This document shows, piece by piece, positions 7,065 to 41,500 of a stretch of DNA of 64,000 nucleotides (position 1 is the stretch's first letter; the number at the start of each line of letters is the position of its first letter). The stretch comes from Azolla caroliniana (taxonomy: Eukaryota; Plantae; Polypodiophyta): NCBI GenBank assembly GCA_043228905.1, contig JBHGNT010000015.1, positions 3,844,001-3,908,000 of the forward strand, read 5' to 3'. The position numbers and the translations under genes are program-made. The notes under the pieces are model-generated. The model saw nothing but the letters and a program-made list of their open reading frames with translations, did not search any database and was not told the DNA's origin.

Positions 7065-7065
7065 A

Positions 7066-10000
7066 ATGAATCTTAGCTTGCTAACATGGAATATACAAGG
7101 AATTGGTGGTAGCCAATTCCACATGAAGAACAATGTATTAGCTGCTGAAATTCAGCGATGCACGGAGGCAATAGTGCTTGATGTTATCATGGTGCAAGAG
7201 CATCACCTAGATGGGGATAAGATCGACAAAATTGGAAACATCTGCCCTGGCAGTTGGACCAATACATGGTCGGCAGCTACGGGGGACAGACAGATTCACG
7301 GGGGAGTACTCATAGCAATGAAAGCTAAGTATAATGCAACATTCACAGGCAGAGGATGTTTAGTAGAGGGTCGGGCTGTCTATATAAGGATCAAACATAG
7401 ATATGGGCACTTGGGCATACTGAACATATATGCCCCAAATTCTACTACTGAAATAAAGGAATTCTGGTTGCAACTAGTGGACAAGAAACCAGATGCAGAT
7501 ATGTGGATCATTGGAGGAGATTTTAATATGGTGGAGCAACAAGAAGATATAAGCGGAAATGCAAATGGCACGGTGCAAGGGGCGGAAAAAGATGCATGGG
7601 ATAAGTTTTGTTTAGCATATAACGTGATAGATTGTTGGAATGCATCTAACTTTCAGATGCAAAAAGAAAAATCTCTTCTATACTCTAGAGTAGGAGGAAG
7701 CGTTCATGGGAGGAGAATGTCCATGTTGGACAGATGGTATTTGGACCCTCGGCTCATAGATATGAAAGGCAAATGCATAATTTGTCCTGGAACGATGTTC
7801 TCAGACCATGCACCTATCCTGTTACATATAAAAAAAAACAGTCGATGCAATCCACATAATGTGAAGGGGAGCAAGGAGTTGGTCATGGACAATAAATGGA
7901 CTAATGATATAAGAAGACTATGGTCTAATGTCAAATGGATGTATCATGATCCCGCTCATAGGCTGGCTGGGAAAATTGAGGAATGTGCATGTTTCTTTCG
8001 GAAGAAAGCAACTGAAATTAGAAAGGAGATGAAGGAGAAACTACAAAGAATGCAATGGACACTCGCTTCTATGCAGCGACTAAGAGAACAATACCTGAAT
8101 AATGTATGGATTGAGGCCCAACTAGAGGAGGCAAAATGCAAACTGGATATGTATTAGAAACTAAGGACTACTAATGCCTATCGTAGTAAAGCAGTAAATT
8201 GGATGAGGGTAGGAGACCGTGTTATGAAAGGTTTTTTTGAAGCTGTAAAATGCAAAGGCTCTGGGACCCAACCTTCATGTTTGAAAAAGACAGATGGCAC
8301 AATGACCACGTGCGCGAAGGAAATGCTTGGAATGGCCACGAGCTATTATATGCAACTACTGAATGTATGCAACGAGGATCATATTGAGCAGGATGCCTTT
8401 AGAAATATAATAAATAGGATACCGAAGAGAGTTTCGGCTCAGATGATGGACCGTCTAAATACCCCTATTTGTATACAAGAATTGTGGGATGCAATTTCAG
8501 ATATGAACAAACAAAGTTGTGCAGGCATAGATGGACTCCCTATATATTTTTACATCAAATATTGGGATTTAATTAAGGATGACATGTTGGAAGGGATGCA
8601 ATACATTATGGCTGAAGGTTTAATGCCTCCGACATTGTATCAAGGAATGATTTATTTAATTCCCAAGGATGGGAAAGATCTAACTATGCTTGATAATTGG
8701 CGACCTTTGACGATTCTCACTAATGGCTATAAGATCATGGCTAAAGTTGTAAGTAGTCAATTGAAAACGGTCCTAGGGGACATAATACATACAACGCAAA
8801 CTGGCTTCCTCGAAAACCGGAGCATTGTTGACAATGTGATAACTTTTTGGGAGTATTCAGCATGGGCAGAGGAGCAAGAAGTGGACCTAGCAGTAATGTT
8901 ACTCGATTTTGAAAAAACATATGATAGGATCTCATGGGAATTCCTAGAAGCAGTGATGGCTGCCCTAAGCTTCGAGCAGCAATGGATCCTTGGATTGGCT
9001 GCCTTTTATAGGGATGCTTCCAGCCAGGTTTTAATGGCTGGAAGCTTGGGGAAGAGCTTTAGGATGACACGATCGGTACGCCAGGGATGCCCATTGGCCT
9101 CGTACCTATTCATTATTGCAGCGGAAGTGTTGCATTATCAGATTAGTGATAGATATTGGCAAATACAAGGCCTTCCCCTACCCGAGGATGCAGGAATGAT
9201 GCTTGATACAGAATATGATGATGATACAACAATTTATGTTAAGGGGGATGCAAACAACTTGGACAGACTACAAAGTGCAATAAATGAGTTTTGTAGGGGG
9301 TCATGTGCGAATATAATTTGGAATAAATCAGTGGGCATTTGGATTAGCAATAAGCCTGTGGTCAATTGGGCTCCAGACCCTAATTTCAGATGGTTGAGGA
9401 GAGGAGAAGCTACTAGATACTTGGGTTTCAAAATCGGGATGGACATTGATCGCTCAGAACACTACACTCTACTTGTGGACAAAATAAAAGTGAAGTTAAT
9501 ATGGTGGAATGCAAGAAAATTATCCTTTGCAGCCAAGATTGTGATTGCAAATCAGGTGCTAATGGCCACAATATGGCATACTGTGGCATGTTGGATAATC
9601 GCACCCAAGTCGATGAAATTGATAAAAAGGTTGATCAGAAATTTCTTATGGGGGGGCACCGAGGAAAAACATGCTTGTGCAAAGGTTGCATGGACTACAC
9701 TCATAAAAGATAAACGTGAAGGTGGGGTGGGACTAATAGATCCTGTGGTGCAAACGAAGGCTTTGCTCGGCAAATTGGTGGTCAGGAGCTTGCAACCACC
9801 CGAGGCACCTTGGAAAATTCTCTGGCGACGCAGATGGAATATGTGGTTGCCAAGACATGGTGGGAGTTGGCCAAGTAGCCCTTTTTGGGGGTTTGTGCCT
9901 GAAATGCGACCCAAATACCGGGGATGTACACAGAGTATATGTGTTGTTGGAATTATGAAGGCATGGAATGGAATAAGAAAGGGAATCGTTTGTAGGTGGA

Positions 10001-11415
10001 GAAATGATGCATATGCTCGAATGTACATGCCTATTGTTTGGAACCCATTAATTAGAGATGTGGATGGGCTGATGATAGGACAAAAAACAGGTTTCAAATG
10101 GGCCAATTTAATCAATGCCCAAGGGAATACATTGGCAAATTGGAAGAGATTTCTACGTAATGATGTGGGCACTCAAAAGGCTAGAATATGGAGGATAAAC
10201 AGGGGTAAATGCATGCTAATGAGGATTACAGATGCCTTTGCACGCAGCGGGCAAATCTTGGAAGAAGCAGCCATAAGCCCCTCTGAAATGGAATGGACAG
10301 GACTCATCGATGCTGAAAATTATGTAATTGGAATTAAGGGAATGAAAGCCAACTCTAATGAGGCATGCTACTACAAAATAGATCATAGAAGGGTAATATG
10401 TGAGCAACCAGCCTATCAAAGTGAAAGGCCAATTAGGTTGCTTGCAAAAAATGGAAAGGCTATGATAGTTGACCCCAAACCAAGTGAGCTCAAACCAACG
10501 ACGGTGTGTTGGCCGATAGAAGGGAATTCAAATCAGCTATCATGGGACCCTGCGATGTATTTCTGGAAAACTCAAGGTCCAAGTGATGGTGCCAAGTTGG
10601 TGCAATTTTTCAAGTACAACACGAAAATCGAGAGGCAAATTATCCTAAAACAAGAACACCAAGATATTGCAGCTCGTAAATTTTGGATACAAGAGGGCAT
10701 TAGTGAAAGGAGATTAGCTAAATTCTGGAAAATGATATGGCATGACAGCGGTGACCGCAAGATAATGATGTGCTTATGGCTTATTGTGCATAGAGCCTTG
10801 CCAGTAGGGGCATGGGCTAAAGGCCCCAATGTAGACCCAAGATGTAGTGCATGTGGACAACTAGAAAGCATTTCCCATTGTCTTTGGGAATGTCATGAGG
10901 CTATGGTAGTATGGAGAAGGGCATTACGATTGCTTTGCCATGCCTCTAGCTCATTTACCCTCAATTGGGGACATGCTTGTTGGAATTGTCTTGATGATGA
11001 CGTAGAGAATTTTGATAGCACATGTACAACTATGTACAAAGGGGAGAATGGGACTATTCGAGTGATCGTTGGTAAAAGTGCACCTAGAAGTAATGCCCAG
11101 AAGCAGAAAATTGTAGATCTATGGATGTTGTTAGCACCCATTATCATATGGAACATTTGGACCGCAAGATGTACCAGGGTATTTTCAGCAAACAAACGGC
11201 CTCCAACAGAATCTATTAAGCTAATATGGCACATGCTAATAACTACATTGAGGGCCCAATATGAGCGGATTGATGGAATAGATGATGCTTCAGATTTAAT
11301 GAGACTGAAATTCAGAAAACGATGGTGTACTACACCGATGGCTACAGAAATTGGAGTGGAGATACGATGGCAATACGTAGTACCGAGATGGTTGTTCCCC
11401 CCTCCCATTAGATGA
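7066..11415 (+). pseudogene. LINE ORF2: APE endonuclease - reverse transcriptase - zf-RVT; in-frame TAG at 8155-8157
   Basis: LLTWNIQG, NIYAPN, GGDFN, SDHAPI (APE); NWRPLT, DFEKTYD, RQGCPLA, YDDD (RT); CSACGQLESISHCLWEC. Confidence 0.93.
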
Positions 11416-11834
11416 TAGAGGGGCGTGAATGACACAACAAACATGGAGAACAAACATATGGGCTATTTAGTGTAAGATAAATATGTGATGTAGTCCATAC
11501 GGAAGTAGGTAATGTCTAAAGTTGTGTATTGTATGTCATTTTAACTAATGGAGTATATTCTTCTTTTGGAAAAAAAAACAAAAAGTCAACCAAAAACCAA
11601 TAAACCTTTAAACCAAACCATTGAAACCGATAAACCCGAGTTTTAGAACCGAACCGAACCGTTTATTAAAAATCGAAACCAAACCATTAATTTATTGTGG
11701 AACCAATAAACCGTTAAAAGCATGACTTACGGTTTGGTTCGGTTCGGTTCGGTTGGAGCCGAAACCGTGCCCATTGCTAATAATTTGTAAGTAGTGTTTT
11801 TCGCACAGATATACTAATTGTATGTTTTCACCAG

Positions 11835-11992
11835 AAGAAGAAGAAGAAGAAGAAGACGAAGAAGAAGAAGAAGGAGAGAGAGAGAGAGAGAGAGAGAAAG
11901 GCCTTTCTCTCTGAAAGGCTTGACCCCTGTTCTGTGACTCCTTCCTTCTGCCACCGTCGCCATCACCACATCCATCCATCCATCCATCCATC
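11835..11992 (+). repeat. (GAA)n, (GA)n and (CATC)n microsatellites in the TYW1 5' leader
   Basis: Read directly from the sequence. Confidence 0.85.
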
Positions 11993-11993
11993 C

Positions 11994-14900
11994 ATGGAGC
12001 GTCGACACATCGTCGCATTGCAGTGTGCTTCCATTGCTCTGCTCTCTGTCTCTCTCCTGCATTTCTACCGAACCCGGCGTAGAAACCTTCGCAGGGCTTC
12101 TCTAGAACGTGTCAAAGATCTTCTCAATTGGAACAGAGAGCTAGAAGGCCTGGAAGAAGGAGACGAAGACGAAGACAATGAAGCAGATGCAATAGCAGAA
12201 GAAAAAAATGTGAGGGGTCGGACTTCTCATATCTGTACTTCTAATAGCAATAAGGAGACGAAATCATGTGGTAGTTGTAAACCTAAATTACCATCTTCTC
12301 GTCGTAAAAGGAAAGAGGAAGGTTCAGTTAAGCATCAAAATCGGGCAAATCGAGTCTTGAATTTGCCCGAGAAGCGAACATTAGCTGAAAATCCTATTGT
12401 CTTGGATGTCAAGTCTCTTAATTCTATCCAAGGTAAAGTTATTTATGCTTCTCAAACCGGTCGTAGTAAGGCCTTAGCTGAAAAACTTGTTCGAGATCTC
12501 TTAGTTGAGAATGCTCAAGTTGAGCTATTGGACCCTTTGTCTTATGAACCCGAAGACTTAGCTCAAGAGAAGTTTGTTGTCTTTGTTGTCTCGACATGGG
12601 AGAATGGCTTAGCGCCAGATCATGCTTCTTTTCTTGGAAGATGGTTAGAAGAAAGTTCTGCCGATTTTAGGGTCAGTTCTTGGCTCCTAAATCAGTGCAA
12701 ATATGCCATTTTTGGAATAGGTAGTAGTGCTTATGGCTCTTCATATAATATGGTTGCTAGATCCTGGGATCAGCATATGTCAGAACTTGGGGCAAGTAGG
12801 ATACTTGATAGAGAAGAAGGAGACGAAGATGAAGGTTTGGTGGATGAAAAATTCAAGGAATGGACGGAAAAGCTCATTAGAAAGCTGAAGTCTCTCAATG
12901 GGTCTCCATTACAAGTGGTTCATGAAGAAGGAAATATCGATGATGCTATCGATAGTGACGATGAAGATGAAGATGAAGATGATTATGATAAAGATGAAGA
13001 TGAAGATGACAAAGAGAATATGGAAGAAGAGTTGGTTGATGTAGAAGATATTGGAGGGAAGTTTGATGTATCGGGGAAAAAAGATAACGTGCTTCTAGAA
13101 AATGGTAAACAAAAAATATATAGAAGGAAGAATCAAAGCAAAGTAGTTCCAAGTTTGGACAATGGAAATCAAGGACCAAAGGAAATGGTGACCCCAACCA
13201 TTCGTGCAAATTTAGAAAAGCAGGTTTGACATCATGCCACTATCTATTACTAGGAAATTTCATGGTCTATATATGGATGCTTGTTTCCAATATTTGGTTA
13301 TGGTGGCTATGCAGGGATATAAAATCATTGGTTCACATAGTGGTGTGAAGCTTTGTAGATGGACTAAGTCACAGCTCCGAGGACGTGGTGGATGTTATAA
13401 GCATTCATTTTATGGCATTGAAAGTCATAGGTAAGAATTTTATGCTTGGCATTCGAGAATGTTTTGTTACTAATCAGCAGTCTCCTTTTCATGTGTTAAA
13501 AATTGGAAAGCATGAAAAAAGACTGCGAATCGGATATTTGTATATTTTATAGGATTTGTAGTTTTCAAATATTTCCAGCCCATGCTCCTTTATAGTTCTA
13601 TTTTTTCTGATAATTCGATTTACCTAATTTTGTGCTACTTGACATGGTAAAGATTAAAATGTTTGTAAAAGAAACCCTGTTTGGCTAAGCTAGTTTGTAT
13701 ATTTGACCACAGGTGTATGGAGACGACACCAAGCCTAGCATGTGCTAACAAATGTGTGTTTTGTTGGAGACATCACACGAATCCTGTTGGCAAGACGTGG
13801 AAGTGGAAAATGGACGACCCTATCGAGATTGTTGAAGCTGCATTAGACAAACATATTAAAATGGTCAAACAGATGAAAGGTGTTCCTGGTGAGACTTGAA
13901 AGTGAAGTTTTCATATCTATATATGATCTTTGCAAAAATGGAAACACTTTGTTCATTTATGGAGTGTCTGTGCATGTGTTGCATCACAGGCGTTAGTCAA
14001 GACCGCTTGATCGAAGGAATTAACCCCAGACATTGTGCCTTATCTCTGGTTGGGGAACCTATCATGTACCCTGAAATTAATAAGCTAGTAAGAGAGTTGC
14101 ACAAACGCAGGATTTCAACATTTCTCGTTACCAATGCACAATTTCCAGATTGCATCGAAAATCTGGATCCGATCACACAGGCATGAATATTGAGAGTTTT
14201 GTTTGTTATAGAAGTTGTTCTACATTGTGAATCTTGATATTATCTCTAGAAAAGCTCACAGGAGGACATGTATACCCATCTTAAATTGGCACTTTTGGCA
14301 TTATCAGCTCTATGTCAGTGTTGATGCAGCTACCAAGGAACGGCTTAAGGCTATCGATCGACCACTTTTTGCAGATTTCTGGGAGCGCTTTGTAGTAAGC
14401 AGTTTGCTGTTATTGTTTTGAGCATGAAAATTTCTTGGTGCTATGCATAACATGAAATCACTTTTGTTGTATTTTTCTCTGAAATTTGAATAGTTTTTTA
14501 CTATCAAAATGATTATTAGGGTAATATACTAAGCTTAAAACTTATTTCATTTTTTTGTATTTTGTTTCCTGTGATGAAATATCTGGATCTTTTAGAATCG
14601 TAATGTCATAAGCATAGATGAAAATATGTTAGTCTGAAACATGGAATTGAATTTGAAGATTATGAGCACATGCTAGTCTGAACCGTACAATCTATAATAT
14701 CAGATTCCACCCCATATGGGATCTGTCGACAAACTAATTCATCAGAAAACATACATGGCATCTGGTCAGGTCGACAAGAAGTCCTTACCCTCTTTTCTTC
14801 AGCTCGATTGTCTCTGTTCTTTGCTAGGATCCAGTCATAGGGTTCTTTAGGTGGATTTCTTGATCGCAACCTGCTGCCTAGTAACGTGAATCTGGAATCC

Positions 14901-18420: not shown

Positions 18421-19087
18421 GCTAGAGATAGATTCACACACACACACATGCACGCGCACGCACACACATTGATTGAAGGAGATGAGAACAAAAACAACAC
18501 ATGCACGTGCACACACGCACATTGGCAGATAGAGATACAAACATAATCAACACTTTGGTGGTGATGGAGATGGAGATGAAGATGATGGAGATGGTGTGAA
18601 TGAAGAAGAAGATGAAGAGTCCATTCCACTTTTGGCACCCCTCTTTCCGTTTTTTGGTCTATAATTCCTTTTATCTTTTTGCTTTAACTGATTTGTTAGA
18701 CTCTTAACACTTTACATTCCATTACATTTCCATTTCGTTTTTGTTTTTGTTTTTTGTTTGGGAAGCTCTAAGGTTCTCTCTAACAAACTCAAACTCTTTA
18801 TGAAATAAGTATAATAAGATTTGTATATAAATTATTACAGAAATAAAATAACAGCGAATTTAGGGCTTCTTTGCATCGCCCGCACGTTTTGTGACGTTCG
18901 GGAATTGAATAGAAGATCTAAATGATTAAAATTTGTAAAAAAGGAATTTAAAAATAAATAAATAAATAGATTATATATATATATCGTCGAAAAAAATTCT
19001 GAGCAGACAGAAATCACAGAAAAAACTGTTGAGGAAATTATTGCTGTTTTTTGTTTTCGGATTGCTTCTGTTTTGGTGTTTGTATGT

Positions 19088-20911
19088 ATGGATCTGATGA
19101 TTGGCTCTGATGATCACGATCGTCCTCCTCCTGCTTCGGTTGATGATGATCGTATTTATATTAATTTCGCCAATGGCAATATCATTCCAGCAATCCCTAA
19201 TCCCTCTCCTCCTCATAACAATGTCCTCCTCCTCTCCGATTCTCAGCTCCTCGATGCCATGGAAGCTGAATTGCGCTTAGCTTACAAGATGGTACTGCTA
19301 CAGCGATTCCCATCCATTCCTTACTGTTAAATTTTTATTTTTTGTCCATTGATTCGCTCAACTTTGCGTGCTTAAATCTGAATGAGAACCTTCTTTCTGC
19401 ATCCGTGGAATTATTAACTAAAAGTTTGACATAATGAACCAACGAATGGAATTGAAACTGTTAAATTTTATTTTATTCTTTTATCCATTGATTCACTCAA
19501 CTTTGCGTGCTTAAATCTGAATGAGAACCTTCTGCATCCGTGGAATTATTAACTAAAATTTTGACCTAATGAACAAACGAATGGAAATGGAATTGAAACT
19601 GTTAAATTTTATTTTATTTTTTTATCCATTGATTCACTCAACTTTGCGTGCTTAAATCTGAATGAGAACCTTCTGCATCCGTGGAATTATTAACTAAAAG
19701 TTTGACCTAATGAACCAACGAATGGAATTGAAACTGAACTGAGATGAGAACGGATGGATCATGGCAGGTGGAAGAGCTGAAGCAGGCGCCACGGCATAAT
19801 AAGAGCTACAATTCTAGGTCACGGAGGGGAATGAATGGAAATGGTAGAAGGAGTGGTAGTAGCAGTGAGGCTATGGCGCTGAATATAGCGAAGCCATGCT
19901 GTTTCTGCAGCGGCAGCACTACAACCGCCGCCGCCATGGCAAGTCATGAAATGATGGTTCAGACGATGAGCAGGAGCGGCTCGGATCAATTCCCGTCGCC
20001 AGATTCGACGGCGCAGATGCGCAGCAGCGCCACCACTACGCCGCCGCGACGATCTTCCTCCACTTCTTCTTCTTCTCCCTCGTCTTCCCGCCTCCTCCTC
20101 CTCAGTAATAGTAGTAATCTGACGGTGCGCCATTTTTGTAATTTCAGCATATATTTTCTTTTCCCTCCATTTTTTCGTTACTACTTATAATGTGATAGAT
20201 GGTTGGTAGTTATATTGGAAATTCATCCCTACTTACTGACATGATTTAGATTGTACTTCCTGTATGATTTGAACACGTTTTGAGTTCCTTATGTGTGTAC
20301 GCATATTATGCATCTGAGAGTGCGCGCACGGAGCAATACTCCACACATATTATTCGTAAATGGATCATTTGCAATGGAGGGATTAAGTATCTAGCTCATA
20401 TTAAGGGTTCATTAACAGAAGTAATGGATTGAACTAATCCAGAATGCATAAATTTGCTATTGTTTTCGTTGCATATTGTGTAATCCCAAAATTAGGGCGG
20501 CGTAGGAGATGGGACGGTTTTTAGGGTTTCAATAGAGGAAGTGTGTTTAGTAGTATCATCCATGGAGGCTTTTAAAAACAGTCTGGTGAATTTTTAAAAT
20601 AGTATAAGGCCTTAAATGAATGTGAGCGATGAATTCTTGGAGCACTTTTATAGAGTAATGCACTTATAGTCTTGAGATATTCCATGGTTTCAGAAAATTG
20701 GATTTGTTTAATTACCATTCAATGTCAAGTCCATGTAATTAGCGAGCACTTTTAATGTATTGGTTGCCTCAAACTAATCTAAACTTTACCATAACTCCAG
20801 GTTGCTCAGAAGCTTTTCGACACGCGAATGGAGACTGTTTCCACAGGGTTGAACCCAGATGGTTTGATGCTAGCAGTAGACAAGTTCCTCTCTTCCCCTA
20901 ATTACAGTTGA
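19088..20911 (+). CDS. Putative orphan Ser-rich protein (~223 aa); exons 19088-19291, 19768-20124, 20801-20911
   Basis: Three GC-richer open blocks joined by phase-0 GT-AG introns: MDLMIG...LAYKM | VEELKQ...SNLT | VAQKLF...SPNYS*; (TA)n upstream at ~18972; no recognised domain; intron-1 acceptor lacks a pyrimidine tract. Confidence 0.55.
19324..19737. repeat. ~135-140-bp tandem repeat x3 filling intron 1 of the orphan gene
   Basis: CTGTTAAATTTT...TCAACTTTGCGTGCTTAAATCTGAATGAGAACC...GGAATTGAAA three times. Confidence 0.92.
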
Positions 20912-22197: not shown

Positions 22198-22394
22198 TAT
22201 ATGTATATATTTATTTATTTTTAGATTTAATGTTTAACGATTGACGAAGATGTTAATGTGATATGCTGTCATTACACAGACTAAGATTAGGCATATATGG
22301 TTGACACTAATTATGGATCAATGGCGGCTATAATTGGGGGGTATGTACTACAGGCAATGGATTTTGGATTCGATTGGATTGGATTGATTTGTAT

Positions 22395-23381
22395 TTACTC
22401 CTGGTGGTGTCCACTGTGATGGTCATGGCCTGATGCATTTGGGGAGGTATGATGATGATGATGGTCATGGTGGCTAGATTGATGGCCATCATGCTGAGGC
22501 TTGGACGCCTGATGCTTCTTCGATTTCCTCTTGTGGCCTGCACGGGCAGAGGCAGGGCGTTTCTTCGAAGCAGCAGCAGAAGAAGAAGAAGCAGACCTGG
22601 ATGAGGCCTTCTTCTTCCCTTTCTGTGCTGCTACTTTCCGCTTCTTCGTGCCGCCCGCCTGATAATTTCCCACAGACATCATCATCATCATCATCATGAA
22701 AAGCCATAGATATGGAGTCAATTCTTCTTTATGATCCCATGGGAAATGCTTAATTTTTAGTCCATTTCTCAGAGAATGAATTAAGACCAAAGAATCAACC
22801 AAATTTAAAACAAACAGGTTAATTTTTAGTCCATTTCTCAGAGAATTAAGACGAAAGAATCAACGAAATTCAAAACAAACAGGAACTTAAATTTTTGGTC
22901 CATTTCTCATAGAATTACGACGAAAGAATCAACGAATTCAAAAAACACATGTAAATTTTAAAGAATTATGACGAAAGAATCAACCAAATTCAAAACAAAC
23001 AGATCAATTTTAGTCCATTTCTCAGAGAATGAATTAAGACGAAAGAATCAACAAAATTTAAAACAAACAGGTTAATTTTCTGTCCATTTCTCAGAGAATT
23101 ACGACAAAAGAATCAACAAATTTAAAACAAACAGGTTAATTTTATTCCATTTCTCAGCGAATTAACACGAAAGAATCAACAAATTTTAAAACAAAAAACA
23201 GGCACGCAAACACAAACGATCCCCGAAGGCACATTCAAGATGGTTTTTCTGTAAGAAGGAAAGGGATCATTAGAAATATGTATTGGGAGTTTTTTTTTAC
23301 CTTGACTTTGTGGGGTTTGGAGGCGAGTTTCTTCTTGGCAGAAGGAGAAGCAGAAGCCTTCATCTTTCGAGCAGGAGCCAT
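22395..23381 (-). CDS. 114-aa highly basic, His-tailed protein (protamine-like / sperm nuclear basic protein candidate); exons 23381-23301, 22658-22395
   Basis: ATG at 23381 (TCCATGGCT context); MAPARKMKASASPSAKKKLASKPHKVK, donor AAG|GTAAA, acceptor TATCAG|GCG, then AGGTKKRKVAAQKGKKKASSRS...HDHHSGHHQE*; phase-0 intron; both exons share K/A/S composition. The gene model is fairly firm; the function is inferred. Confidence 0.75.
22748..23203. repeat. ~65-70-bp minisatellite x~7 filling the intron of the basic-protein gene
   Basis: TTAATTTTTAGTCCATTTCTCAGAGAATTAAGACGAAAGAATCAACGAAATTCAAAACAAACAGG units. Confidence 0.92.
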
Positions 23382-23542
23382 GGATACTAACTAATGCGTA
23401 TCTTCTTCCTGTATATGAGAGGTACTTTGGCAACGAATCAGAGCAAAATTAGGGCAAAGCTTTAAATTATGTTAATCTCAGAACACTCAGGGATTAATCA
23501 ACTAAACTCCTGATGAAATTCGGATGGGAAGGATTGAGAGAT

Positions 23543-23692
23543 TATATATATATATATGTATATATATATGTATGTATAGCTGATTCTTCTTCTGAAGGAT
23601 CGAAAGGGTTGGAAGGAGCCAACCGTCACGTGACCCCTCGCCAATAACCGTCACGTGATTAATTTAATTCCTCCATAACCGTCAACCCACGT
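23543..23692 (-). promoter_or_regulatory. Promoter of the basic-protein gene: (TA)n TATA-like tract plus 3x AACCGTCA (DUO1-type MYB site), two overlapping a CACGTG G-box
   Basis: AACCGTC at 23621-23627, 23646-23652 and 23677-23683, i.e. 240-300 bp upstream of the ATG. Confidence 0.6.
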
Positions 23693-30406: not shown

Positions 30407-30669
30407 GTCTGAGAGACGAGAGACGCACAAATGGCATGCACATGTCATCATGACATGCGACAGATACAATAGATCCAATGTATGGGCATTTGTGCTATAA
30501 ACTTAGTGGAGCTAAAGGACGTGATGAGGCGTGAGAACACAAACATAACATGCATGTGGTGATACGTACGGTGTGGGACTTGAAAAGACCATCACCATTT
30601 AAACAACAACTTGCGAAATCATGAGAAAATGTCATTGAATTAACAAACAAACAAATGTCAATTCCATCC

Positions 30670-30715
30670 CATACATGCATACATACATACATACATACAT
30701 ACATACATACATACA

Positions 30716-30747
<32 letters not shown>

Positions 30748-30893
30748 CATATACATATACATACATTGATTGTACATACATACATAAATACATACACACA
30801 CACACATATTATACATATACATACATACATCATACATATACATACATTGATTGTACATACATACATACATCATACATATACATACATTGATTG

Positions 30894-30925
<32 letters not shown>

Positions 30926-31135
30926 TTATACATATACATACATACATCATACATATACATCATACATACATTGATTGTACATACATACATACATACATAC
31001 ACACACACACATATTATACATATACATATACTGTTATACATATACATACATACATACATACATACATCGTACATATACATATACATATACATATACGGTT
31101 ATACATACATACATACATACATACATTGTACATAT
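30670..31135. repeat. Compound (TACA)n/(CA)n microsatellite with higher-order units
   Basis: ATAC runs punctuated by CATTGATTGTA and CACACATATTA. Confidence 0.95.
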
Positions 31136-31215
31136 ATGTATTTGTTGTTTTGAGTAATTTTGCTGCAAAATTTAGTGCACCCATAATTTATACATATGTC
31201 GATGATTTGTTGCAG

Positions 31216-34200
31216 AATGTGAACAGACAGGGCCTCACTTCTGAAGAAGCTGCTCGATTACTCAGCAAATATGGACCCAACAAACTTGAAGAGAAACCTG
31301 TAAGACCTTCAATCTGTGTATTTTGCCTGATTCATGACGCTTATTCATTTAGCAGAAATCATTATTTGGCACCAGTCAACCCTTCATGTCCTCTACGCGT
31401 GTATGGGTTGAGAGAAACAACAAGCTCATCAAATGCCTATTAAAAATCTGGAAACTTGTTGAGGGGAGTGTGGCCAGCTTAATTTCTTTTTCGTAAATAA
31501 ATTCTCATCCGATAGCAGGTCCCGCCAGGTTCTAGGAATTGGATTATAACGAATCAATCACGTTTCCATTAACATGTATGATAGTGGCTTTGCGTATATG
31601 AATGTGTTTAAAGAGGAATGTAGAAGAACCCGAAAGAATATTTGAGTGCAAAAATGAAGAAAGAAATGACTGGCTCACAAAGATTGGAATGAAAAACAGG
31701 TGAGTATCACATTAGGAAGGCTGATGAAACATGGCTATGTTTCAGGCACTCTGTAGAGATTCTTGGCAAAATTTGTTATAGTTTTTCATAATACATTATA
31801 ATAATGGATATCATCTGACAAGTAATATTCAAGGAAGAATGCATGGATATACTCTTCCTTTTTTGGTAACGCATTATCTAAATGGACATTGTCTCTTTTA
31901 ATGACCAATGAAGGTGAACAAGAGATTATATCTGAAAATGTTGTGCTATCTAAGCAACAACAAGATAAGCCACATAGCCATTTGATGGAATTATATGGGC
32001 CCTTGAGCTTCTTTAAAATCATAACTCATAGACATGGACTTCCACTCCAGCACACAAGTAAGAGTTTGGATACATACAACCTGGTGAAGTTACTGGTGGA
32101 CAAATGCTCACATAAAAATTGATATCATGATGACTGCCATCATGATCATTTACAAGCACACTTCCAAAAGCTGGAGGTATTAGGATATTCACTCATGCTA
32201 TTGAGATTTGCAAACAGAAACCTAATGGATTTTTCAAACCTTAAAAAAGAAAATAATATATGAGCTCTTCTTGGGACATACTGTAAGAAAGACTGACATA
32301 ATCTGAGAGAGAAAGATGAAAGAAAGAAAGAAAAGTATATTAACATCTTTTAAGAGACCAAAATGGCCTATACGACCAAACAAGAGATTACAGCTTAAGT
32401 GTTGTCTCATCATTGAGAACAACAAACCAAAATAAATGTCACTAAGTAAAAAAAGTAAATACAATAAAAGGTGAGTAAAGTACCTTGTTATCGGTCCATG
32501 TAAGATTCTCTAGTCAGATAATTTGTAATTTTTGTTTTTGAAAGTTCGGTAGCAGAGGATAGATTAATGTCCATATATGAGGTCCTGATGATGAATTCAT
32601 CCTCCTATGATTGCAAAAAGTGTCTTATAGTGGGCTATTTTCCTATCAAGTGATGTTTTGGGGCTGATACTTGTTATCTTGTTTTGCATTGGAGTGTGTG
32701 TATGCCACCTTTTCCTTTCCCAAGAAGAATTTTGGTTTTGATCTTGTTACCCATGCTTAAGTAGTGTTAAACATCATCTCTCGAGTTTTATTGATGTTTA
32801 TCAACAAATCTTTGACTGTACAAAATACCTTGAAGGTGTTTAGATGTCTTTGTAGTTCCTCTGTGGAGTCGGAGATCAGCACAATGTTATCAGCATATAA
32901 GAATATCTGTATCTATACGTGCTAAGCATGCTCCCAAACTGCCATATCTGTCTGCAATGCCATATCTCATCTAAACAGATATCACAGAGAATGGGTGATA
33001 ATGGGCATACTTGTACTCCAATTGCACTAACCAGTCTCTAACAACCCATTGGGATATTGCACTTTTCATGACAGGGATTCATACAGTGCATATATTCCCC
33101 TTTGCATATTTACGGGGACACTAAGGACTTTTAACTGCTGCATGAGCCGAGCGCGTATGTTGGAGGCTTTTCAGAAATCCACAAAGCACAATCCTTGTTT
33201 TATGGGATATGCCCTCCTCAATAAGGTCTCGGAGGGTCAATATGTGGTCCAATGTTGTGAACCCTTTTGAAAGTCTGCATGTCCACCTGATCAACAGCTT
33301 TTTCTCTTTGGTCATACACTCAAGTCTGACTCTGAGATCAAGCCATTAAAATAGCTAAGTAATGGCCATTGCAAATTTGAAAGAACAATATATACTGTTT
33401 CACGATAATTATGAACTCCTCATTCACAAGAATATACCCTGGTGGTAGAAAGTGTTTTATTCTCTGGGTGGCATTGAACAGCCTAAAGTAATGGAGTAAC
33501 AACAATGATGGAATGTTGGATGAAGGTTTTTCATATCCACGTGATACATTATTGCACTGTCATATATTTTTAACTAAAATTTTGTAAGAGTTTTTAAATT
33601 ACCTGGACAGAGTATTCCATTACCATTATGTTACCTTCTAAGAGAAAGAAAGAAAGAGATTACATCTTAAGTGTTGTCTTGTCTTTGAGAACAACAAATC
33701 AAAATAAAATAAATATTACTCTGTAAACATAAAAGTAAGTAAGATAAAAAGAGACGAGGAAAACTGGTTTTCGGCACATGTGAGATTCTCAAGCTAGATG
33801 TATTGTAACTTTTTTCTTTGAAAGATCTCTAGCATAGGTTGATCCAGAATGGAAAGTTCTCCAGAGCGAGGGAAGCACCTGCGATGGCGGGAGATAATGG
33901 CTTCTATCTGTCGATGACAAGGGTGTTGAGGTCGTGGTCCACGGGGCTGGGGCCTACGTGCACGACAAATTGCTATTGCCCGATCAATTGTAACCCCTTT
34001 GTTATGTCCTGCTCAGGAGCCCATTTGTGTATCCCTTGATTGACTTGTAGCATTGGTAGGAGTGATGGGGTTAAAGAAAGTTGTGATTGTTCTTTGTGGA
34101 TGAGCTTGTGCGGCTGTATTTTTTAACAATATTTGCCGATGTCTCTTGAGCTCTAACAAGAAAAGGCAGACTCGATGGTACCTAGAACAATGGAAGTTAG

Positions 34201-37200
34201 AGAAATGGTCGATTGCCCTCAGTAAGCTCAATCCCCATCCAAACCATGTCTAAAAATGATTTCACGATTTACCAGTATTTGCTGAGAAAGAATAAGGAAT
34301 ATGATTCTTCACTTGTTTCTGATGTTGACTTCTTGTTCCTCTTTGGTCTGCTTAAGAGCATATATCAAGAAATTCTATGTCAAAGATGAAAGCATTGAGT
34401 ATTTGTGATTAGTGAATTTAGTGATGAATATCTTCTGTTTTGATTTGAGCAGGAAAGCCAGATTCTCAAATTTCTTGGATTTATGTGGAATCCTCTTTCT
34501 TGGGTCATGGAATTTGCAGCCATCATGGCAATTGCTCTTGCAAATGGAAACGTGAGTGGATTTTATATCTTGCTGAAGCTTTTAGAGTTTATTGATAAAT
34601 ATCTCTCATGTAGACACTATATTACAACTCTTCATGGAACAGAACAAACCTCCAGATTGGCAAGACTTCGTAGGTATCATTGTGTTACTCTTATTAAACT
34701 CTACAATCAGTTTCTGGGAAGAAAGTAATGCAAGCAGTGCAGCGGCCTCTCTTATGTCTCGCCTTGCTCTCAAAACCAAGGTGCTCATATTCCAAATAAT
34801 CACCAACTAAGTGAGATCTACATATCCATGCTAAGCTGACTTAATAAGGTATAGGTTTTGCGTGATGGAGAATGGACAGAACAGGATGCTTCTGTGCTGG
34901 TACCTGGTGATATTGTGAGTATCAAACTTGGTGACATTATACCTGCAGATGTTATACTTTTAGAGGGGGATCCTCTTCAGATTGATCAGGTAAATTCAGT
35001 ATACCAACTTGAAATGAGGGAATGAATTTATGGTTGTTAACTGATTCATTCACTAGAACCTTGAGATAAGGTGATTGGTTTTGAATTTAGCATATTTTTA
35101 CATCCATGCATCTGTGTGTTTCTTTTGCAGTCTGCACTCACAGGGGAATCTTTGGCAGTTATAAAGAGAACAGGGGAAAAGGTCCTTTCAGGGTCCATAT
35201 GCAAACAGGGGGAGATTGAAGCTGCTGTATTTGCAACTGGTGTGCATACATTTCTTGGAAAAGCTGCCCATCTGGTTCATTCCACGCATCAAGTTGGGCA
35301 TTTTCAAAAGGTCAGCCTTGAGAATTCATTGTATGGATGTAGGACGCTGGCATTCATGCATTGTTTGAAGCTAACTTTGTGGTCAAAACTTCAATGATGG
35401 ATAGCATACCAATTATATTGATTGAGATTTCTTTTCCATGTTATTGGATAAGCACAAAAGAATCATTCAAGAAAATGAAGACGAGAAGTGAGTGGTAAAT
35501 CCAAAATACAATGTGCATTATTGTTGCCTGTAGATTTTTGCGTTTGATACTGGGCTTCTAATTTCAGTACAACTATCTCCACAATACTTATGGAGAATGT
35601 GAATTTATGGTCCTCTCAATGTGCTAGTGGGTGAAGATAAGTTGCAGCTGAATATCAGCTGCATGTCATACTTTCACTTTGGATTGTTGAATCATGCACT
35701 TTCCTTTATTTCCAAGACCTAGATTTTCATTTGTGGCAGTTCTTAGTTAAATATCCTTTTTCATGAAAATAATAACCATTTTTGTAGAATACGTATGCTA
35801 AGTATTCTACAATATTCTAACGTTTTTTTAAGAATACGTATTTTATAGATAAAATACGTTAAATACTTCTTAAAATTAAAAAATATAAATTTCAAAAAAA
35901 ATAAATTAAAAAATTAAAAAAATGTTAAACTTTTTTGAAATGATAAATACTTGGTAAATACATAGAATATGACAAATTTTTAGAATACGTAGAATGCGTC
36001 AAATTTTGAAAAACTGCAGTTCTAAAACGTAGAATACGTGTAGAATACTTCGGCACATTCTAAAATGTATTCTAAACATAGAATACATGTTTTTTAACAA
36101 CTATGATAATAACCCAATTTGGTGGATCTGATGCAATGATATTTGTGTGTTTAATATAGAACAATTTCTTTCTGTAATAACAAAGATCTGCAGGATCTAT
36201 GTTTCATTTAATGTTGTTTCCTACTTGTTAATTTTCATTTTAAGTCTTGTATAATGCTCTTTTCAACTAGTTACAGTTTTTGAAATCGTTGAATTTCAGG
36301 TTCTAAAATCCATTGGAAATTTTTGTATCTGTTCCATAGCAGTTGGAATGCTCATTGAGATTGTTGTCATGTATCCTGTTCAACATAGGCTCTACAGGGA
36401 TGGGATTAATAACCTTTTGGTCCTCCTTATTGGAGGGATTCCCATTGCTATGCCAACTGTTTTATCTGTCACAATGGCCATTGGGTCACATCGCCTTGCT
36501 CAACAGGTAAAAGCAAAAGGATTAGAAATCTGTTGAAAATCATAATCCGGTTAAGAGGAGTTTGCATCTTTTTATATCTGGGTTGAACCGATGCTTTATG
36601 GATTGTTTGCTAGGGGGCTATAACAAAACGAATGACCGCTATAGAAGAATTGGCAGCTATGGATGTTCTGTGCAGTGATAAAACAGGAACTCTTACATTG
36701 AATAGGCTTACTGTTGAAAAACAACTTATAGAGGTAATCTTGGCTTGAACTGATAACCTTACTGCAACATACTTTTGAATGGGGAAATACAATACTCCAA
36801 TTTCATACCTGCATTAATCAGTGCATGTATATATGATTTTCAGAGAAGAGAATGTTGTATGGCACATGTTTTGTATAGGTCATTTTCATTTGAAGTTTTC
36901 ATAGAGGAATCCTCATGAAAGAATAGTTGAATATTCAATAAACTCACTTCCATTTCTGCTTCCAAGGTTCCAACTCAAAGAAATGGATAGCGTTATATGA
37001 TGACAAAGCATTCATGTTACGACAGCCAAAGGATGTATAAGCTGTATGAATTAAGACAACATGTCTTTTTAAGTAACAAAACAGTGTGTTGGAGCATTTC
37101 TTATCGTGAGGGAACAATTTCTCACTTGCCACTATTTAGGATCCCTTTGTTATGAAGATAAACACATTACGTGTATATGATTAATTGGGTAGTTCAAATC

Positions 37201-38461
37201 GAATTGATCTCTCAAGACCCGTTGACCTATCCAGGAAATTGTTTCAAGAGGATCATCATTTGTACATTCTTTTAATTAAAATAATTTCGTGTTTGACTCA
37301 CAGGTCTTTGAAAAAGGTGCAACTAAGGATAAAGTAATCATGCTAGCAGCTAGGGCATCTAGAACTGAAAACCAAGATGCCATTGACTCTGCTATCATCA
37401 GTTTGCTTCCTAACCCCAAAGAGGTGATATAGAAAAGAAAGAAAGAAAGAAAACTACATTACAGTGTTTTAAGAGGTCAAAATGGCCTGTAGGAACAAAC
37501 AAAAGATTACATACATCTTAACATGTTTTCTTGTCTTTGACAATAGCCAACCAAAATAAATAAATGTAATTAAATATAAAGTAAATAATAATAAAAGTGG
37601 CTAAAGAAGTTTGTTATCGTTAAATGTAAGAGTCTCAAGTCAGATTATATACCTCCAGCTTTTCCATTAGGATGCTGTTTTGTCTTCTAGGTAACTTTCC
37701 TCACCTAAGGATGTGGAAGTACCCATTATTTTCTGCCCCAAATTATATCTAATTCTAAAAGCATATTTGAATGATGCGTCACACGGTTCACAAACATTTT
37801 AGTCAGCCTATTACGCCAACGGATCAAAACAGAAAATCCTTACGGTTCAGTTTAGCCTAAGAAAATACTTGTTACCATTTAAATTGGTCCTTCCATTGCA
37901 ATAATGCCACAATTCTAATTTCAAGTGTTTCATCTGTACAATGTTTATTATTGCTTGAAGATAATGGCCACATACTTATTCACTGTTTGGTTGCCTCTTG
38001 TATGTGGATATTTGTTTGTCATCTAGACCTTCAAGACCAGAGGTATTTGATCTCCTTTTTGTTGAGTACTTTCTCAACAAATTTTATTGTTCCCTTGTAA
38101 GCACTTCTAGTTTGTTGTTTATTTTCTTAGCTTCAGTAGTTGTTGGAATAATTCTTGTCACACAATGCCTTTCGTTTTTATGCTCAGCATGCATTGTGTC
38201 CACTGCCTGAAAGTTCTTGTATTGTTTCACTTCTCTATATTGCACACAGAGAGAAAGAGAAAGAGAAAGAAAGACAAATGTAACGTCTTTTAAGAGGCCA
38301 AAATGGCCTATAAGACCAAACAAGAGATTACACCATAAGTGTTGTCTCGTCTTTGAGAACAAGAAATCAAAATAAAATAAATATTGCTAAGTAAATATAA
38401 AAGTAAATAAGATGAAAGGAACTAAAGAATCTGGTTTTCAGCACATGTAAGATTCTCAGGT

Positions 38462-38512
<51 letters not shown>

Positions 38513-41500
38513 AATATTAACGTCTTTTAAGAGGCCAAAATGGCCTATAAGACCAAATAAGAGATTACATCTTAAGTGGTGTCTTGTCTTTGAGAATAAA
38601 TCAAAATAAAATAAATATTACACAGTAAATATAAAAGTAAATAACATGAAAAGAAAAGAAATGAGGGAATCTGGTTTTTGGCACATGTGAGATCCTCAGG
38701 AGAGAGAGAGAGAGAGCTTTGAATAAACAGGCTCGTGAAAATATCAAAGAAGTTCACTTTCTGCCTTTCAATCCTATGATCAAACGCACGGCATTAACAT
38801 ACATAGATGAAAATGGATGCTGGTATAGAGCAAGTAAAGGTGCACCTGAACAGGTAGCTATGTATACTGAATTTTGTGCAATCATTGACCTTGTATTTAT
38901 TGGGTTATTGACCCTATCATGGGCAATTTAGGTACAACATTTGATGATGTGAATGTTACATTTCTGAACAGATTCTAAGTTTATGCCAAAACAGAGGAGA
39001 ACTGGCTCAGCATTTCCATTCAGTAATCCAAACTTATGCTGATCGTGGTTTCCGCTCACTTGCTGTTGCATGGCAGGTCAATTATATATTAACATGCATA
39101 TATTTAAAATGGATCCTTTTTCATGTTATATACATCTTAGTTGCAACTTGTTTTATTTTAGGAAGTTCCTGAGAAAAGGCTGGATGGTGAGGGATCACCT
39201 TGGCAGCTTTCTGGCATACTCCCACTTTTCGATCCTCCTCGTCATGATAGTGCTGAGACTATATCTCGAGCTCTTAAGCTTGGGATTACTGTGAAGATGC
39301 TAACTGGTAAAAACTAAAACACGCATTAGAATTCATGTTGATATTTTTCAGCTTCGGAATACCAGTGGGTGGTTATAATATGCTAGGGACTGTACTGTGC
39401 CTGGAGTTTTTTAGGTCATCTGAAATCTTTATAATGATACTTCCTTTTTTCAGAAAAAATGGTGAACTTGAAGTTTTTGGGAAGGGGGTATTTTATGTAC
39501 TTTCTCGAAGATTAAATAAACAAGTGTCCCTAGAAAAGAAACTCATTTATCTACCTTTGCAATATCATTATGACTAATAAGGAATCTTTGGTAAAGGGAC
39601 TAACTAGGAAGGAAGAAAAACAATGACTGGCCTTAAAATGATTGAGGTTGAGTTTGTGGTACCAATATGTAAGGAAAATAAACAAGGTAATGCAATCAAA
39701 GAGCTATGGTCTAGTAGAGCATCTGATGGGTGACCATGAAGATGCCTCTACCAAAAATCTGGATGTCAAATATAGCAATGGTAGCCAACGAGTCAAGACT
39801 GATAAGAGTTGGATCAATTGCATGATCCAAAAATTCTTTGTGACTAAGGTCTATCATGATTGCTTTGATAAAGTTAGCATCTGAAAAAATAAAATAAAAC
39901 TGCCGAGGAGTCTGAACAGATGCTTAGAACCAGCTGTTAATAGCTATTATGAAACAATAACAGAGAACTATAGCAACTCAAGGACAATTGAGAAAACATA
40001 GAAGAAGCGCAAACTTGTTACTTACAGAGTATTGTATTACACAACAGTATAGTTATAAAGTCAGAAGAACGCCTTCAAACATCAAAGGCACTTGATGCAA
40101 ATGCCATACCACTACCAGGGGACATACGTGACTACAAAGTCAGAAGAACATCTTCAAACATCAAAGGCACTTGATGCAAATGACATACTAGGGGACATGC
40201 ACGACAGATTGCTGAAGCGTTAAATGATAAAAATGCACTTCTTCTGGTTGCAATAGTGTAGAAGATTGCAATTATTTTAAGAGAGGACCTGTTCTAATCC
40301 AACTTCTACATGCAAGTTAAGATTTCTCGAGTGAGGGAGATGTATATCTTCAATAAAAATCTCATCTTTTTTTTTTCTTTATTTGTTCTTGTATTGTCTT
40401 ATGCTTAGGTGATCAATTGGCAATAGCAAAAGAGACAGGCCGAATGCTTGGGATGGGCAGCAACATGTATCCTTCGTCACTGTTAAATAAAGAACACATC
40501 AATGGCGTTCCTCTGGATGATCTGATTGAAAATGCAGATGGGTTTGCTGGTGTATTCCCAGGTGATTATTTTATAATTTTCTGGTGATAAATCTAACAGC
40601 ATCACAAAAGTTAAATATAAGAAGACACTGGTATAGGAAACAACTGTATTATAAACTGAGAACAAAGAAGTAACATTTTATTTAAATAAACTTATGATGC
40701 TTGAATAAACAAAAAAAGACATATCCACATCTTTTAAGAGGCCAAAATGGCCAATAAGACCAAACAAGAGATTACATCTTCAAATGTTGTCTTGTCTTTG
40801 AGAAGAACAAACCAAAATAAATGTAATTATGTAAATAAGTTTACTAAAATTAAAAGTGATGAAAGAACCCCATTATCTATAAATGTAAGATTTTCAAGTC
40901 AGATAGGTTGTAATTTTTGTTTTCAAAAGATATCTAACGTAGGTAAATCCAGAATGGCCTTTATTTGTCAATGACAAGGGTGGTGAAATCATGGTCCACA
41001 AGGCTGGGGCCTATGTGCACAAAAAATTGCCATTACCTGATCTATTATAACCCCTTTGCAATGTCCTTGGCAGGAGCCTATTCCCACTCATGTAGCCCTG
41101 ATTGACTTTTAACATGAATAGGAATGATCGGGCTAAAGAAAGTTGTGATTGTTGATGAGCTTGTGTGGTTGTATTGTTGTGTTTCAGTTATTTCTCTCTA
41201 AATCTCTCCAGTTATTTGCCTTGTGAGGACTTTGTCCCTAGGTTTCTACTCCATAGAGAAGAGTATCAAGTAGCCACAATCTAGTTAATAGTTCTTGAAC
41301 CTGTATATGTGTACATTCTTTATCAAGAGCACCAAAGGCTGCATACCCACGAGAAAGTCAAGCACATGCAACTTTCCGTAAGGAGAACTGAGGAGTTGTG
41401 AATGTTACTCCTAGGTATGTGTTGGATCATGTATATGCCACCTTTCTCCCAAGAAGAATACTGGTTCTGATCTCATTACCATGCATGAGTGCTGTTAAAC

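What the first reader, a model, noticed from the sequence alone, without database searches (positions are those of the whole stretch)
22395..23381. Unannotated two-exon gene for a protamine-like, Lys/Arg-rich protein with a His-rich tail
Seen: the spliced ORF encodes 114 aa. The first 82 residues contain 28 K/R and no D/E (rest mostly A/S/P/G) with no globular domain; the last 32 residues contain 14 His. The ORF track misses exon 1. Established: plants with motile sperm compact chromatin with basic proteins (e.g. the H1-related protamine-like MpPRM of Marchantia), and mammalian protamine 2 and TP2 bind Zn via His/Cys. Inference: a new Lys-rich sperm nuclear basic or transition protein with a metal-binding tail.
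Basis: partly seen in the sequence, partly recalled or inferred. Interest (0 to 1): 0.85.

Follow-up and report, generated by a model that had tools for sequence, protein, structure and literature searches.

The report
Fern histone-tail-like protein with histidine tail
This is a real, spliced fern gene with no detectable relatives; it encodes a small, strongly basic protein that is predicted to be unfolded and likely coats or compacts DNA, with a histidine tail that likely binds zinc, but whether it works in sperm is untested.

Summary
The spliced ORF (23381-23301 + 22658-22395, minus strand) gives 114 aa; residues 1-82 hold 28 K/R and no D/E, and the last 32 hold 14 His. Contigs from three RNA runs of two related organisms skip the intron in frame, with indels only in the UTRs. 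The host is a fern with flagellar genes. No homologue was found; the only second copy is a fragment inside an inverted-repeat element.

It is not a protamine (5% Arg), a classical protamine-like protein (no winged helix) or a dehydrin (no K-segment). Residues 1-82 match the H1 C-terminal tail in composition; the His tail resembles a dehydrin metal-binding motif.

New here: three DUO1-type RRCSGTT sites lie in the proximal promoter. They overlap G-box/ABRE elements, and control sperm-type genes lack such clusters, so they are not diagnostic.

Best reading: a free H1-tail-like DNA-coating protein with a metal-binding tail (0.4). Sperm nuclear protein remains open (0.27).

The parts
23301..23381 (-). 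Exon 1 CDS (27 codons, ATG at 23381), Lys/Ala/Ser-rich
   Evidence: covered by contigs of X1 and X3 (whole) and X4 (23301-23343)
22659..23300 (-). 642-nt phase-0 GT..AG intron, mostly a 68-69-nt minisatellite (22750-23195)
   Evidence: skipped in three contigs; exact acceptor inferred
22494..22658 (-). Exon 2, basic part (codons 28-82): Lys runs, Ser/Ala tract, one KKRK NLS-like motif
22395..22493 (-). Exon 2, His-rich tail (codons 83-114, 14 His) and stop
   Evidence: covered by contigs of all 4 runs laid
22231..22394 (-). 3'UTR as far as contigs reach; all five indel rows listed against relatives lie here
   Evidence: tables 4 and 8
23382..23480 (-). Approximate 5'UTR; relatives' contigs run on for 87-97 letters whose first 30 resemble this stretch with an indel
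   Evidence: table 7 compared by eye; far end approximate
23543..23578 (-). (TA)n tract in the position of a TATA box
   Evidence: role inferred
23621..23632 (-). Composite promoter element: G-box CACGTG overlapping GACGGTT (matches the DUO1 consensus RRCSGTT), -246 from ATG
23646..23657 (-). Second identical composite element, -271 from ATG
23677..23692 (-). Third GACGGTT (-302), with an ABRE-like ACGTG just upstream (-311)

Best explanation
The gene encodes a small, strongly basic protein, predicted to be unfolded, that likely works as a free-standing histone-H1 tail: it would enter the nucleus, coat linker DNA or RNA and compact it by neutralising charge, while its histidine tail would bind zinc or copper and tune that binding. 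Shown: the gene, its splicing in relatives, its composition and the absence of a globular domain. Inferred: (1) nuclear import through the Lys clusters; (2) sequence-independent nucleic-acid binding and bridging by residues 1-82, as the H1 C-terminal domain does; (3) metal or pH-dependent cross-linking through the His tail, as reported for the poly-Lys plus His-rich parts of the citrus dehydrin CuCOR15; (4) phosphorylation of the 20 Ser residues as an off-switch; (5) a possible origin from the tail of an H1 gene that lost its winged helix; (6) expression wider than sperm alone, under bZIP/MYB control.
For: Composition of residues 1-82 (K27 R7 A22 S18 %, no acids) falls in or near the range of the four H1 tails of this genome (K24-33, R0-3, A17-23, S7-19 %). 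Residues 1-82 align end to end with the last 75 residues of one H1 (L041): score 106 against block shuffles of 79-82 +/- 7, reached by 1-6 of 1000 shuffles. No fold: Pfam 0 hits for both exons; AlphaFold2 of exon 2 alone, without alignment, pTM 0.14. Coding constraint: the intron is skipped in frame, listed indels lie only in the 3'UTR, and 0 of 6 distinct listed amino-acid changes hit a K/R/H codon (chance 0.027, post hoc). Precedent: CuCOR15 binds DNA and RNA in a Zn-dependent way through two His-rich parts and a Lys-rich part, and its strongest metal site HKGEHHSGDHH resembles the C-terminal HDHHSGHH here (PMC4215689 passages). A His-rich motif directs a dehydrin to the nucleus (PMC4561349 abstract). 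The mRNA was listed in five samples of two studies (4 laid). From recall, public fern RNA sets are mostly sporophyte, which leans against a sperm-only gene.
Against: No binding, localisation or tissue data. H1 descent is weak: only 1 of 4 H1s beats its shuffles, the reversed sequence still scores 92, and the best DNA match is 34 nt at 79%. No S/T-P-x-K/R motif is present (the motif is recalled as typical of H1 tails). Purifying selection is slight: dN/dS about 0.65 on 5 and 2 listed changes per organism. The runs were picked for holding this gene and carry no tissue label, so they say little on breadth of expression. The triple DUO1-type cluster fits the sperm rival better than this reading.
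Confidence: 0.4

Rival explanations
1. It is a DUO1-driven sperm nuclear basic or transition protein. It would be switched on in spermatids, displace histones or H1, and condense the sperm nucleus, with the His tail binding zinc or being cleaved off.
For: Three GACGGTT sites, all in sense orientation, lie within 63 nt at -302, -271 and -246 and match the DUO1 consensus RRCSGTT. Three or more sites arose in 15 of 5000 dinucleotide shuffles of the 500-nt promoter; background is 0.34 sites per kb in 81 kb of other fetched DNA. The 12-mer CACGTGACGGTT occurs 6 times in 523 Mb, twice here. MpPRM depends on MpDUO1. The host has LC7, PACRG and Tctex-1 genes. Protamine-type proteins were reported biochemically in sperm of the fern Marsilea (cited in PMC10858212). 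None of the 4 H1 genes found has an Arg-rich tail (Arg 0-3%), so a liverwort-type precursor was not seen and the role may be filled by another gene.
Against: Arg is 5%, K+R 25% overall, Cys 0, no winged helix. The motif could not be calibrated: LC7 has one site about 95 nt before its likely ATG; PACRG has none within 2 kb of its ATG; 0 of 7 DAZ1-like genes have a site within 800 nt; neither Tctex-1 locus has a proximal cluster (start codons not fixed); 2 of 4 H1 genes have a single site in the 130-940 nt examined. Generic triple RRCSGTT occurs 1292 times, below its reversed control (2974), and the listed places are mostly AACCG-rich repeats. Each site also contains TGACG and sits next to ACGTG, so bZIP factors fit too. 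The H1 count is a lower bound.
Confidence: 0.27
2. It is a stress-induced hydrophilin that works like the His-rich KS-type dehydrins. ABA-responsive bZIP and MYB factors would induce it, and it would buffer Cu/Zn, limit radical damage and coat RNA or DNA.
For: Five ACGTG matches (both strands) lie in the 500-nt promoter, reached by 0 of 5000 shuffles; ABRE/G-box meaning is recalled. Seven His-His dipeptides and poly-Lys runs are present, the two parts that give CuCOR15 its metal and nucleic-acid binding. HIRD11 binds metals and lowers radical generation (PMC8669000 passages). Ferns have HKnS dehydrins (PMC11763121 passages).
Against: No K-segment, no H-segment (0 Ile, 1 Leu), longest Ser run 4, and no Pfam Dehydrin hit. 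Net charge about +25 with only 4 acidic residues, unlike dehydrins as I recall them. No stress expression data.
Confidence: 0.22
3. It is a young, lineage-restricted ORF built from simple repeats that is transcribed but has little or no selected protein function.
For: No homologue in 5.8 billion clustered proteins or 1.84 billion representatives; dN/dS about 0.65 on few changes; low-complexity codons.
Against: Frame, start and stop are kept in two related organisms while both UTRs take indels. K/R/H codons are spared. A copy only 77% identical at C19 shows the exon-2 sequence is old. The exons are 51-54% GC against 30% in the intron.
Confidence: 0.1

Closest known systems
Linker histone H1 C-terminal domain (four H1 genes of this genome, L041-L044)
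   Same: Lys/Ala/Ser-rich, acid-free, disordered; weak order-dependent alignment to the L041 tail; short first exon ending in a phase-0 intron
   Different: No winged-helix domain; half the length; adds a 32-aa His tail (H1 tails here have 0% His); descent not shown
Protamine-like (PL) SNBPs, including Marchantia MpPRM and mussel PL-III/PL-IV
   Same: Small and basic with a Lys/Arg-rich stretch; mussel PL-III is 11.8 kDa against 12.2 kDa here; DUO1-type sites upstream
   Different: PLs are defined by a winged-helix head and an Arg/Lys-rich cleavable stretch, and MpPRM is Arg-rich; here no head, 5% Arg and no evidence of sperm specificity. That mussel PL-III lacks a head is recalled, not checked.
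His-rich dehydrins (citrus CuCOR15, Arabidopsis HIRD11, KS/H group)
   Same: About 100 aa, disordered, poly-Lys plus His-His motifs; similar C-terminal His motif; ACGTG-rich promoter
   Different: No K-, H- or S-segment; strongly basic rather than charge-balanced
Mammalian transition protein 2 / protamine 2 (recalled)
   Same: Basic region joined to a His-containing part that may bind zinc
   Different: No Cys, low Arg, no Pfam match; resemblance is by analogy only

Membership tests
Protamine (P-type SNBP) | Short (50-110 aa) | tested here: met
   114 aa, at the upper edge (range from PMC13148410)
Protamine (P-type SNBP) | Arginine-rich (up to 80%) | tested here: not met
   5.3% Arg
Protamine-like (PL) SNBP | Winged-helix globular domain of H1 type | tested here: not met
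   No Pfam hit at E<=1 for either exon; pTM 0.14 for exon 2; 5 hydrophobic residues in 114
Protamine-like (PL) SNBP | Disordered 30-50 aa stretch rich in Arg and Lys | tested here: met
   K+R 34% over residues 1-82, Lys-dominated
Protamine-like (PL) SNBP | Descent from histone H1 | tested here: inconclusive
   1 of 4 H1 tails aligns above shuffles (106 vs about 80); reversed control 92
Sperm nuclear basic proteins (any type) | Expression confined to the sperm lineage and presence in sperm chromatin | not testable with these tools
   Runs have no tissue on record and are contigs only
DUO1 regulon | RRCSGTT sites in the proximal promoter | tested here: met
   3 sites at -302 to -246; 15 of 5000 shuffles
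DUO1 regulon | The motif marks sperm genes in this genome | tested here: inconclusive
   LC7 one proximal site; PACRG, 2 Tctex-1 loci and 7 DAZ1-like genes no proximal cluster; start sites uncertain
Dehydrin (LEA2) | At least one K-segment | tested here: not met
   No PF00257 hit; no match to a recalled K-segment pattern; definition from PMC4215689. PF00257 is reported to miss KS types.
KS/H-type dehydrin | N-terminal Ile/Leu-rich H-segment and C-terminal S-segment | tested here: not met
   0 Ile, 1 Leu; longest Ser run 4, internal (definition)
KS/H-type dehydrin | Lys-rich stretch and His-rich metal-binding motifs | tested here: met
   Poly-Lys runs and 7 His-His dipeptides, by sequence only
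Mammalian TP2 / protamine 2 | Zinc sites built from Cys and His (recalled) | tested here: not met
   0 Cys; no Pfam hit

The most novel reading that the evidence does not exclude
This is the missing fern sperm-chromatin protein: a DUO1-driven, head-less H1 tail fused to a zinc-binding His tail. It would be a third plant route to sperm compaction, beside liverwort H1-derived Arg-rich protamines and angiosperm H2B.8, and would parallel the zinc-binding transition proteins of mammals.
Probability: 0.22. Interest if true: 0.78.

Novelty: new variant of a known kind. Interest (0 to 1): 0.45.

Why it matters
Fern sperm are reported to use protamine-type proteins, but no listing or passage from my nine literature searches named a fern gene for them. 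A single-copy, expressed candidate with DUO1-type sites makes that question testable with one expression data set and one acid-extract proteome. If it is not a sperm protein, it is still an orphan that joins an H1-tail-like polycation to a dehydrin-like metal site, a simple model for metal-switched nucleic-acid condensation. That outcome would be of moderate interest.

Tried and rejected
Homology (exon 2 only, 87 aa): word-indexed search at near lengths, 0 of 21 candidates at E<=1; longer proteins, 0 of 628; phmmer on 1.84 billion representatives, 0 at E<=0.001; ESM Atlas, no usable hit twice; Pfam, 0 for both exons. Low complexity weakens all of these, and the joined protein was never searched.

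Run search: no holder on record as RNA; GT..AG joints in the neighbouring control gene show the four laid runs contain spliced RNA.

PACRG test: in the same four runs the RPA-interacting gene is spliced in 4 of 4, while PACRG coding exons have only two short 3' pieces (X1, X5) and one low-depth upstream joint (X5). This points away from sperm-rich samples, but lack of contig cover proves nothing, so it is not counted as evidence. Contig depths were not used to rank genes.

Promoter pattern searches: generic triple RRCSGTT swamped by repeats; GACGGTTR pairs, 28 matches against 20 control, and those I read (13 loci, output partly cut) were mostly coding, transposon or repeat DNA with no sperm gene recognised; the other 4 CACGTGACGGTT sites are single, two in coding sequence, none by a recognised sperm gene. 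MSA (AACGG) core rejected: absent from the three sites (consensus recalled).

Dehydrin family search of the genome: 0 matches and no control rang, so uninformative. Window gene as a transposon capture: rejected, no long inverted repeats around it. Tail of a longer protein: rejected. Second exon-1 copy: none found by DNA search or within 20 kb of the C19 fragment.

D'Ippolito 2019 (liverwort protamines) was not held; only its title and citing passages were seen. The supplement of PMC6290024 (motif counts per promoter, weight matrices) was not read and could sharpen the motif test. No complex prediction was run.

Full report
1. Observation. Exon 1 (23381-23301, 27 codons) and exon 2 (22658-22395) on the minus strand, joined over a 642-nt phase-0 GT..AG intron, give 114 aa: 22 Lys, 20 Ser, 19 Ala, 17 His, 6 Arg, 4 acidic residues, pI 11.6, 12.2 kDa. 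Residues 1-82 hold 28 K/R and no D/E; residues 83-114 hold 14 His. The exons are 51-54% GC and the intron 30%. The intron is mostly a 68-69-nt minisatellite. No other place in the six frames of the window has a comparable acid-free basic stretch.

2. The gene is transcribed and spliced in relatives. Five of six listed runs hold a small share of the region's words; they come from two organism labels and two studies, with no library or tissue on record. I laid four of them. In X1, X3 and X4 one contig carries exon 2 and exon 1 with 89 letters between the mapped parts, against 98 for the spliced and 740 for the unspliced genome form; X5 covers exon 2 and the 3'UTR. The intron is therefore skipped in frame, with a net loss of 9 nt that probably lies in the Ser/Ala tract. 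The tool skipped 22560-22706, so the acceptor itself is inferred. The same runs show GT..AG joints in a control gene, so they contain spliced RNA. All five indel rows listed lie in the 3'UTR, and the 5'UTR also breaks alignment. Listed coding changes are 5 non-synonymous and 2 synonymous per organism (dN/dS about 0.65; changes near contig ends are not listed). None of the 6 distinct amino-acid changes hits a K, R or H codon, and one adds a His (chance 0.027, post hoc). So the frame and the charge pattern look kept while the spacers drift.

3. Host and copies. The neighbouring TYW1 gene has its best named hits in Adiantum and Ceratopteris at 50-56% identity, so the host is a fern. It has LC7, PACRG and Tctex-1 genes, as expected for motile sperm. 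The gene is single-copy. The only other match is a 130-nt piece of exon 2 on contig C19, 77% identical, with no exon 1 within the 20 kb fetched. That piece lies between long inverted repeats beside copia-like fragments, and its differences show no clear coding constraint (12/4/14 by codon position). I read it as an old transposon capture. The window copy has no such repeats. No protein homologue was found (exon 2 as query, exon 1 in Pfam only).

4. What the protein resembles. It has no fold: 5 hydrophobic residues, no Pfam hit, and pTM 0.14 for exon 2 folded without an alignment. Four H1 genes were found in the genome (a lower bound); all have a winged helix and a Lys-rich tail with 0-3% Arg. 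Residues 1-82 (K27 R7 A22 S18 %) match those tails in composition. They align to the end of one of them (L041) at score 106 against 79-82 +/- 7 for block shuffles (1-6 of 1000). The reversed sequence scores 92, and the other three H1s do not beat their shuffles. Descent from H1 is possible but not shown. The His tail has a different parallel: the strongest metal site of the citrus dehydrin CuCOR15 (HKGEHHSGDHH) resembles the C-terminal HDHHSGHH here, and CuCOR15 binds DNA and RNA in a Zn-dependent way through His-rich and Lys-rich parts (PMC4215689 passages).

5. Promoter. Three GACGGTT sites lie at -302, -271 and -246 from the ATG, upstream of a (TA)n tract. They match the DUO1 consensus RRCSGTT given in the methods of PMC6290024, where MpPRM is shown to depend on MpDUO1 (passages). 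Three or more sites arose in 15 of 5000 shuffles, and the 12-mer CACGTGACGGTT occurs 6 times in the genome, twice here. The cluster is therefore unusual, but it is ambiguous. Each site contains TGACG and sits beside ACGTG (5 matches on both strands, 0 of 5000 shuffles), which points to bZIP/ABA control as easily. The three units may also be duplicates of one element, which would inflate both shuffle tests. Controls did not calibrate the motif: LC7 has one site about 95 nt before its likely ATG; PACRG has none within 2 kb of its ATG (one lies about 400 nt before a possible upstream exon); 0 of 7 DAZ1-like genes (signature recalled) have one within 800 nt; two Tctex-1 loci have no proximal cluster; 2 of 4 H1 genes have one site.

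6. Mechanism. Shown: a spliced, frame-conserved gene for a basic, fold-less protein with a His tail. Inferred: Lys clusters bring it to the nucleus; residues 1-82 neutralise and bridge DNA or RNA as an H1 tail does; the His tail binds Zn or Cu, or gains charge at lower pH, and so tightens or cross-links the complex; Ser phosphorylation loosens it. This biochemistry is common to the three functional readings, which differ in where the gene is used. I put a broadly expressed chromatin or nucleic-acid coating protein at 0.4, a DUO1-driven sperm nuclear protein at 0.27, a dehydrin-like stress protectant at 0.22, and a non-functional ORF at 0.1. The lean away from sperm-only rests on low Arg, the failed calibration, and the mRNA turning up in five samples of two studies; the last point is weak, because the runs were chosen for holding the gene and have no tissue label. 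The PACRG comparison in the same runs is recorded under Tried and rejected and not counted.

7. Membership. It is not a protamine (5% Arg), not a PL protein in the strict sense (no winged helix; definition from PMC13148410 passages), and not a dehydrin (no K-, H- or S-segment; definitions). It may still work like a PL peptide or like the nucleic-acid-binding parts of CuCOR15.

8. Novelty. Ferns are said to condense sperm with protamines (PMC9668745 and PMC10858212 passages), but no listing or passage from nine searches named a fern gene. The library lacks most subscription papers. Papers seen as passages: PMC6290024, PMC11873679, PMC12069490, PMC10858212, PMC9668745, PMC13251019, PMC13113032, PMC4215689, PMC13148410, PMC8669000, PMC11763121, PMC8566409; as abstract and outline: PMC4561349. 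D'Ippolito 2019 was not held. No supplements were read.

9. Verdict. A real orphan gene and a new variant of a known kind (H1-tail-like polycation plus metal-binding His tail). It is a fair, easily tested candidate for the fern sperm-chromatin protein, but that is not established. Interest 0.45; 0.78 if the sperm reading proves true (probability 0.22 for the full novel case).

Noticed in passing
L002:130-2776 (G000:C19, about 13013600-13016250): A TIR-bounded element (arms of 90-124 nt, 73-79% complementary) carries a 130-nt piece of this gene's exon 2, copia-like fragments and a second AG-rich segment; it looks like a Pack-type gene capture.
   Followed up: partly
window 18962-19330 and 19738-20190 (+); 19819-20133 (-): Two low-complexity plus-strand ORFs without Pfam hits, separated by tandem repeats, may be an orphan two-exon gene. 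The opposite strand holds a 104-aa ORF with 20 Arg, 2.3 kb downstream of the studied gene and on its strand; probably an antisense shadow, but worth an expression check.
   Followed up: partly
window 11784-13229 (+): First exon of TYW1 (flavodoxin domain; tRNA wybutosine synthesis), used to place the host among ferns.
   Followed up: yes
window 5086-11415 (+): A LINE retrotransposon with ORF1, an endonuclease-like ORF and a reverse transcriptase ORF separated by a stop at about 8157.
   Followed up: partly
window about 30600-46000 (+): Exons of a P-type ATPase (E1-E2 ATPase hit at 35065-35397), probably a plasma-membrane H+-ATPase.
   Followed up: partly
L082-L105 (G000 C5, C7, C13, C18, C20, C22): Seven long multi-finger C2H2 genes, six with a DAZ1-like finger (signature recalled): an expanded family in this fern.
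   Followed up: partly
genome-wide; similar palindromic sites at window 11657-11715 and 63266-63898: An abundant AACCG/CGGTT-rich repeat family supplies most listed RRCSGTT clusters, which will confound any DUO1 or MSA motif scan in this genome.
   Followed up: no
L079:705-2670 (-) and 3954-8165 (+): The flagellar LC7 gene lies head to head with an ER retention receptor-like gene (named by eye), about 1.3 kb apart; LC7 has an N-terminal Ala/Ser/Pro extension.
   Followed up: no
G000:C12:18028056 and C70:85986: Two Tctex-1 matches with equal scores, one on an unplaced contig; possibly an uncollapsed haplotype.
   Followed up: no
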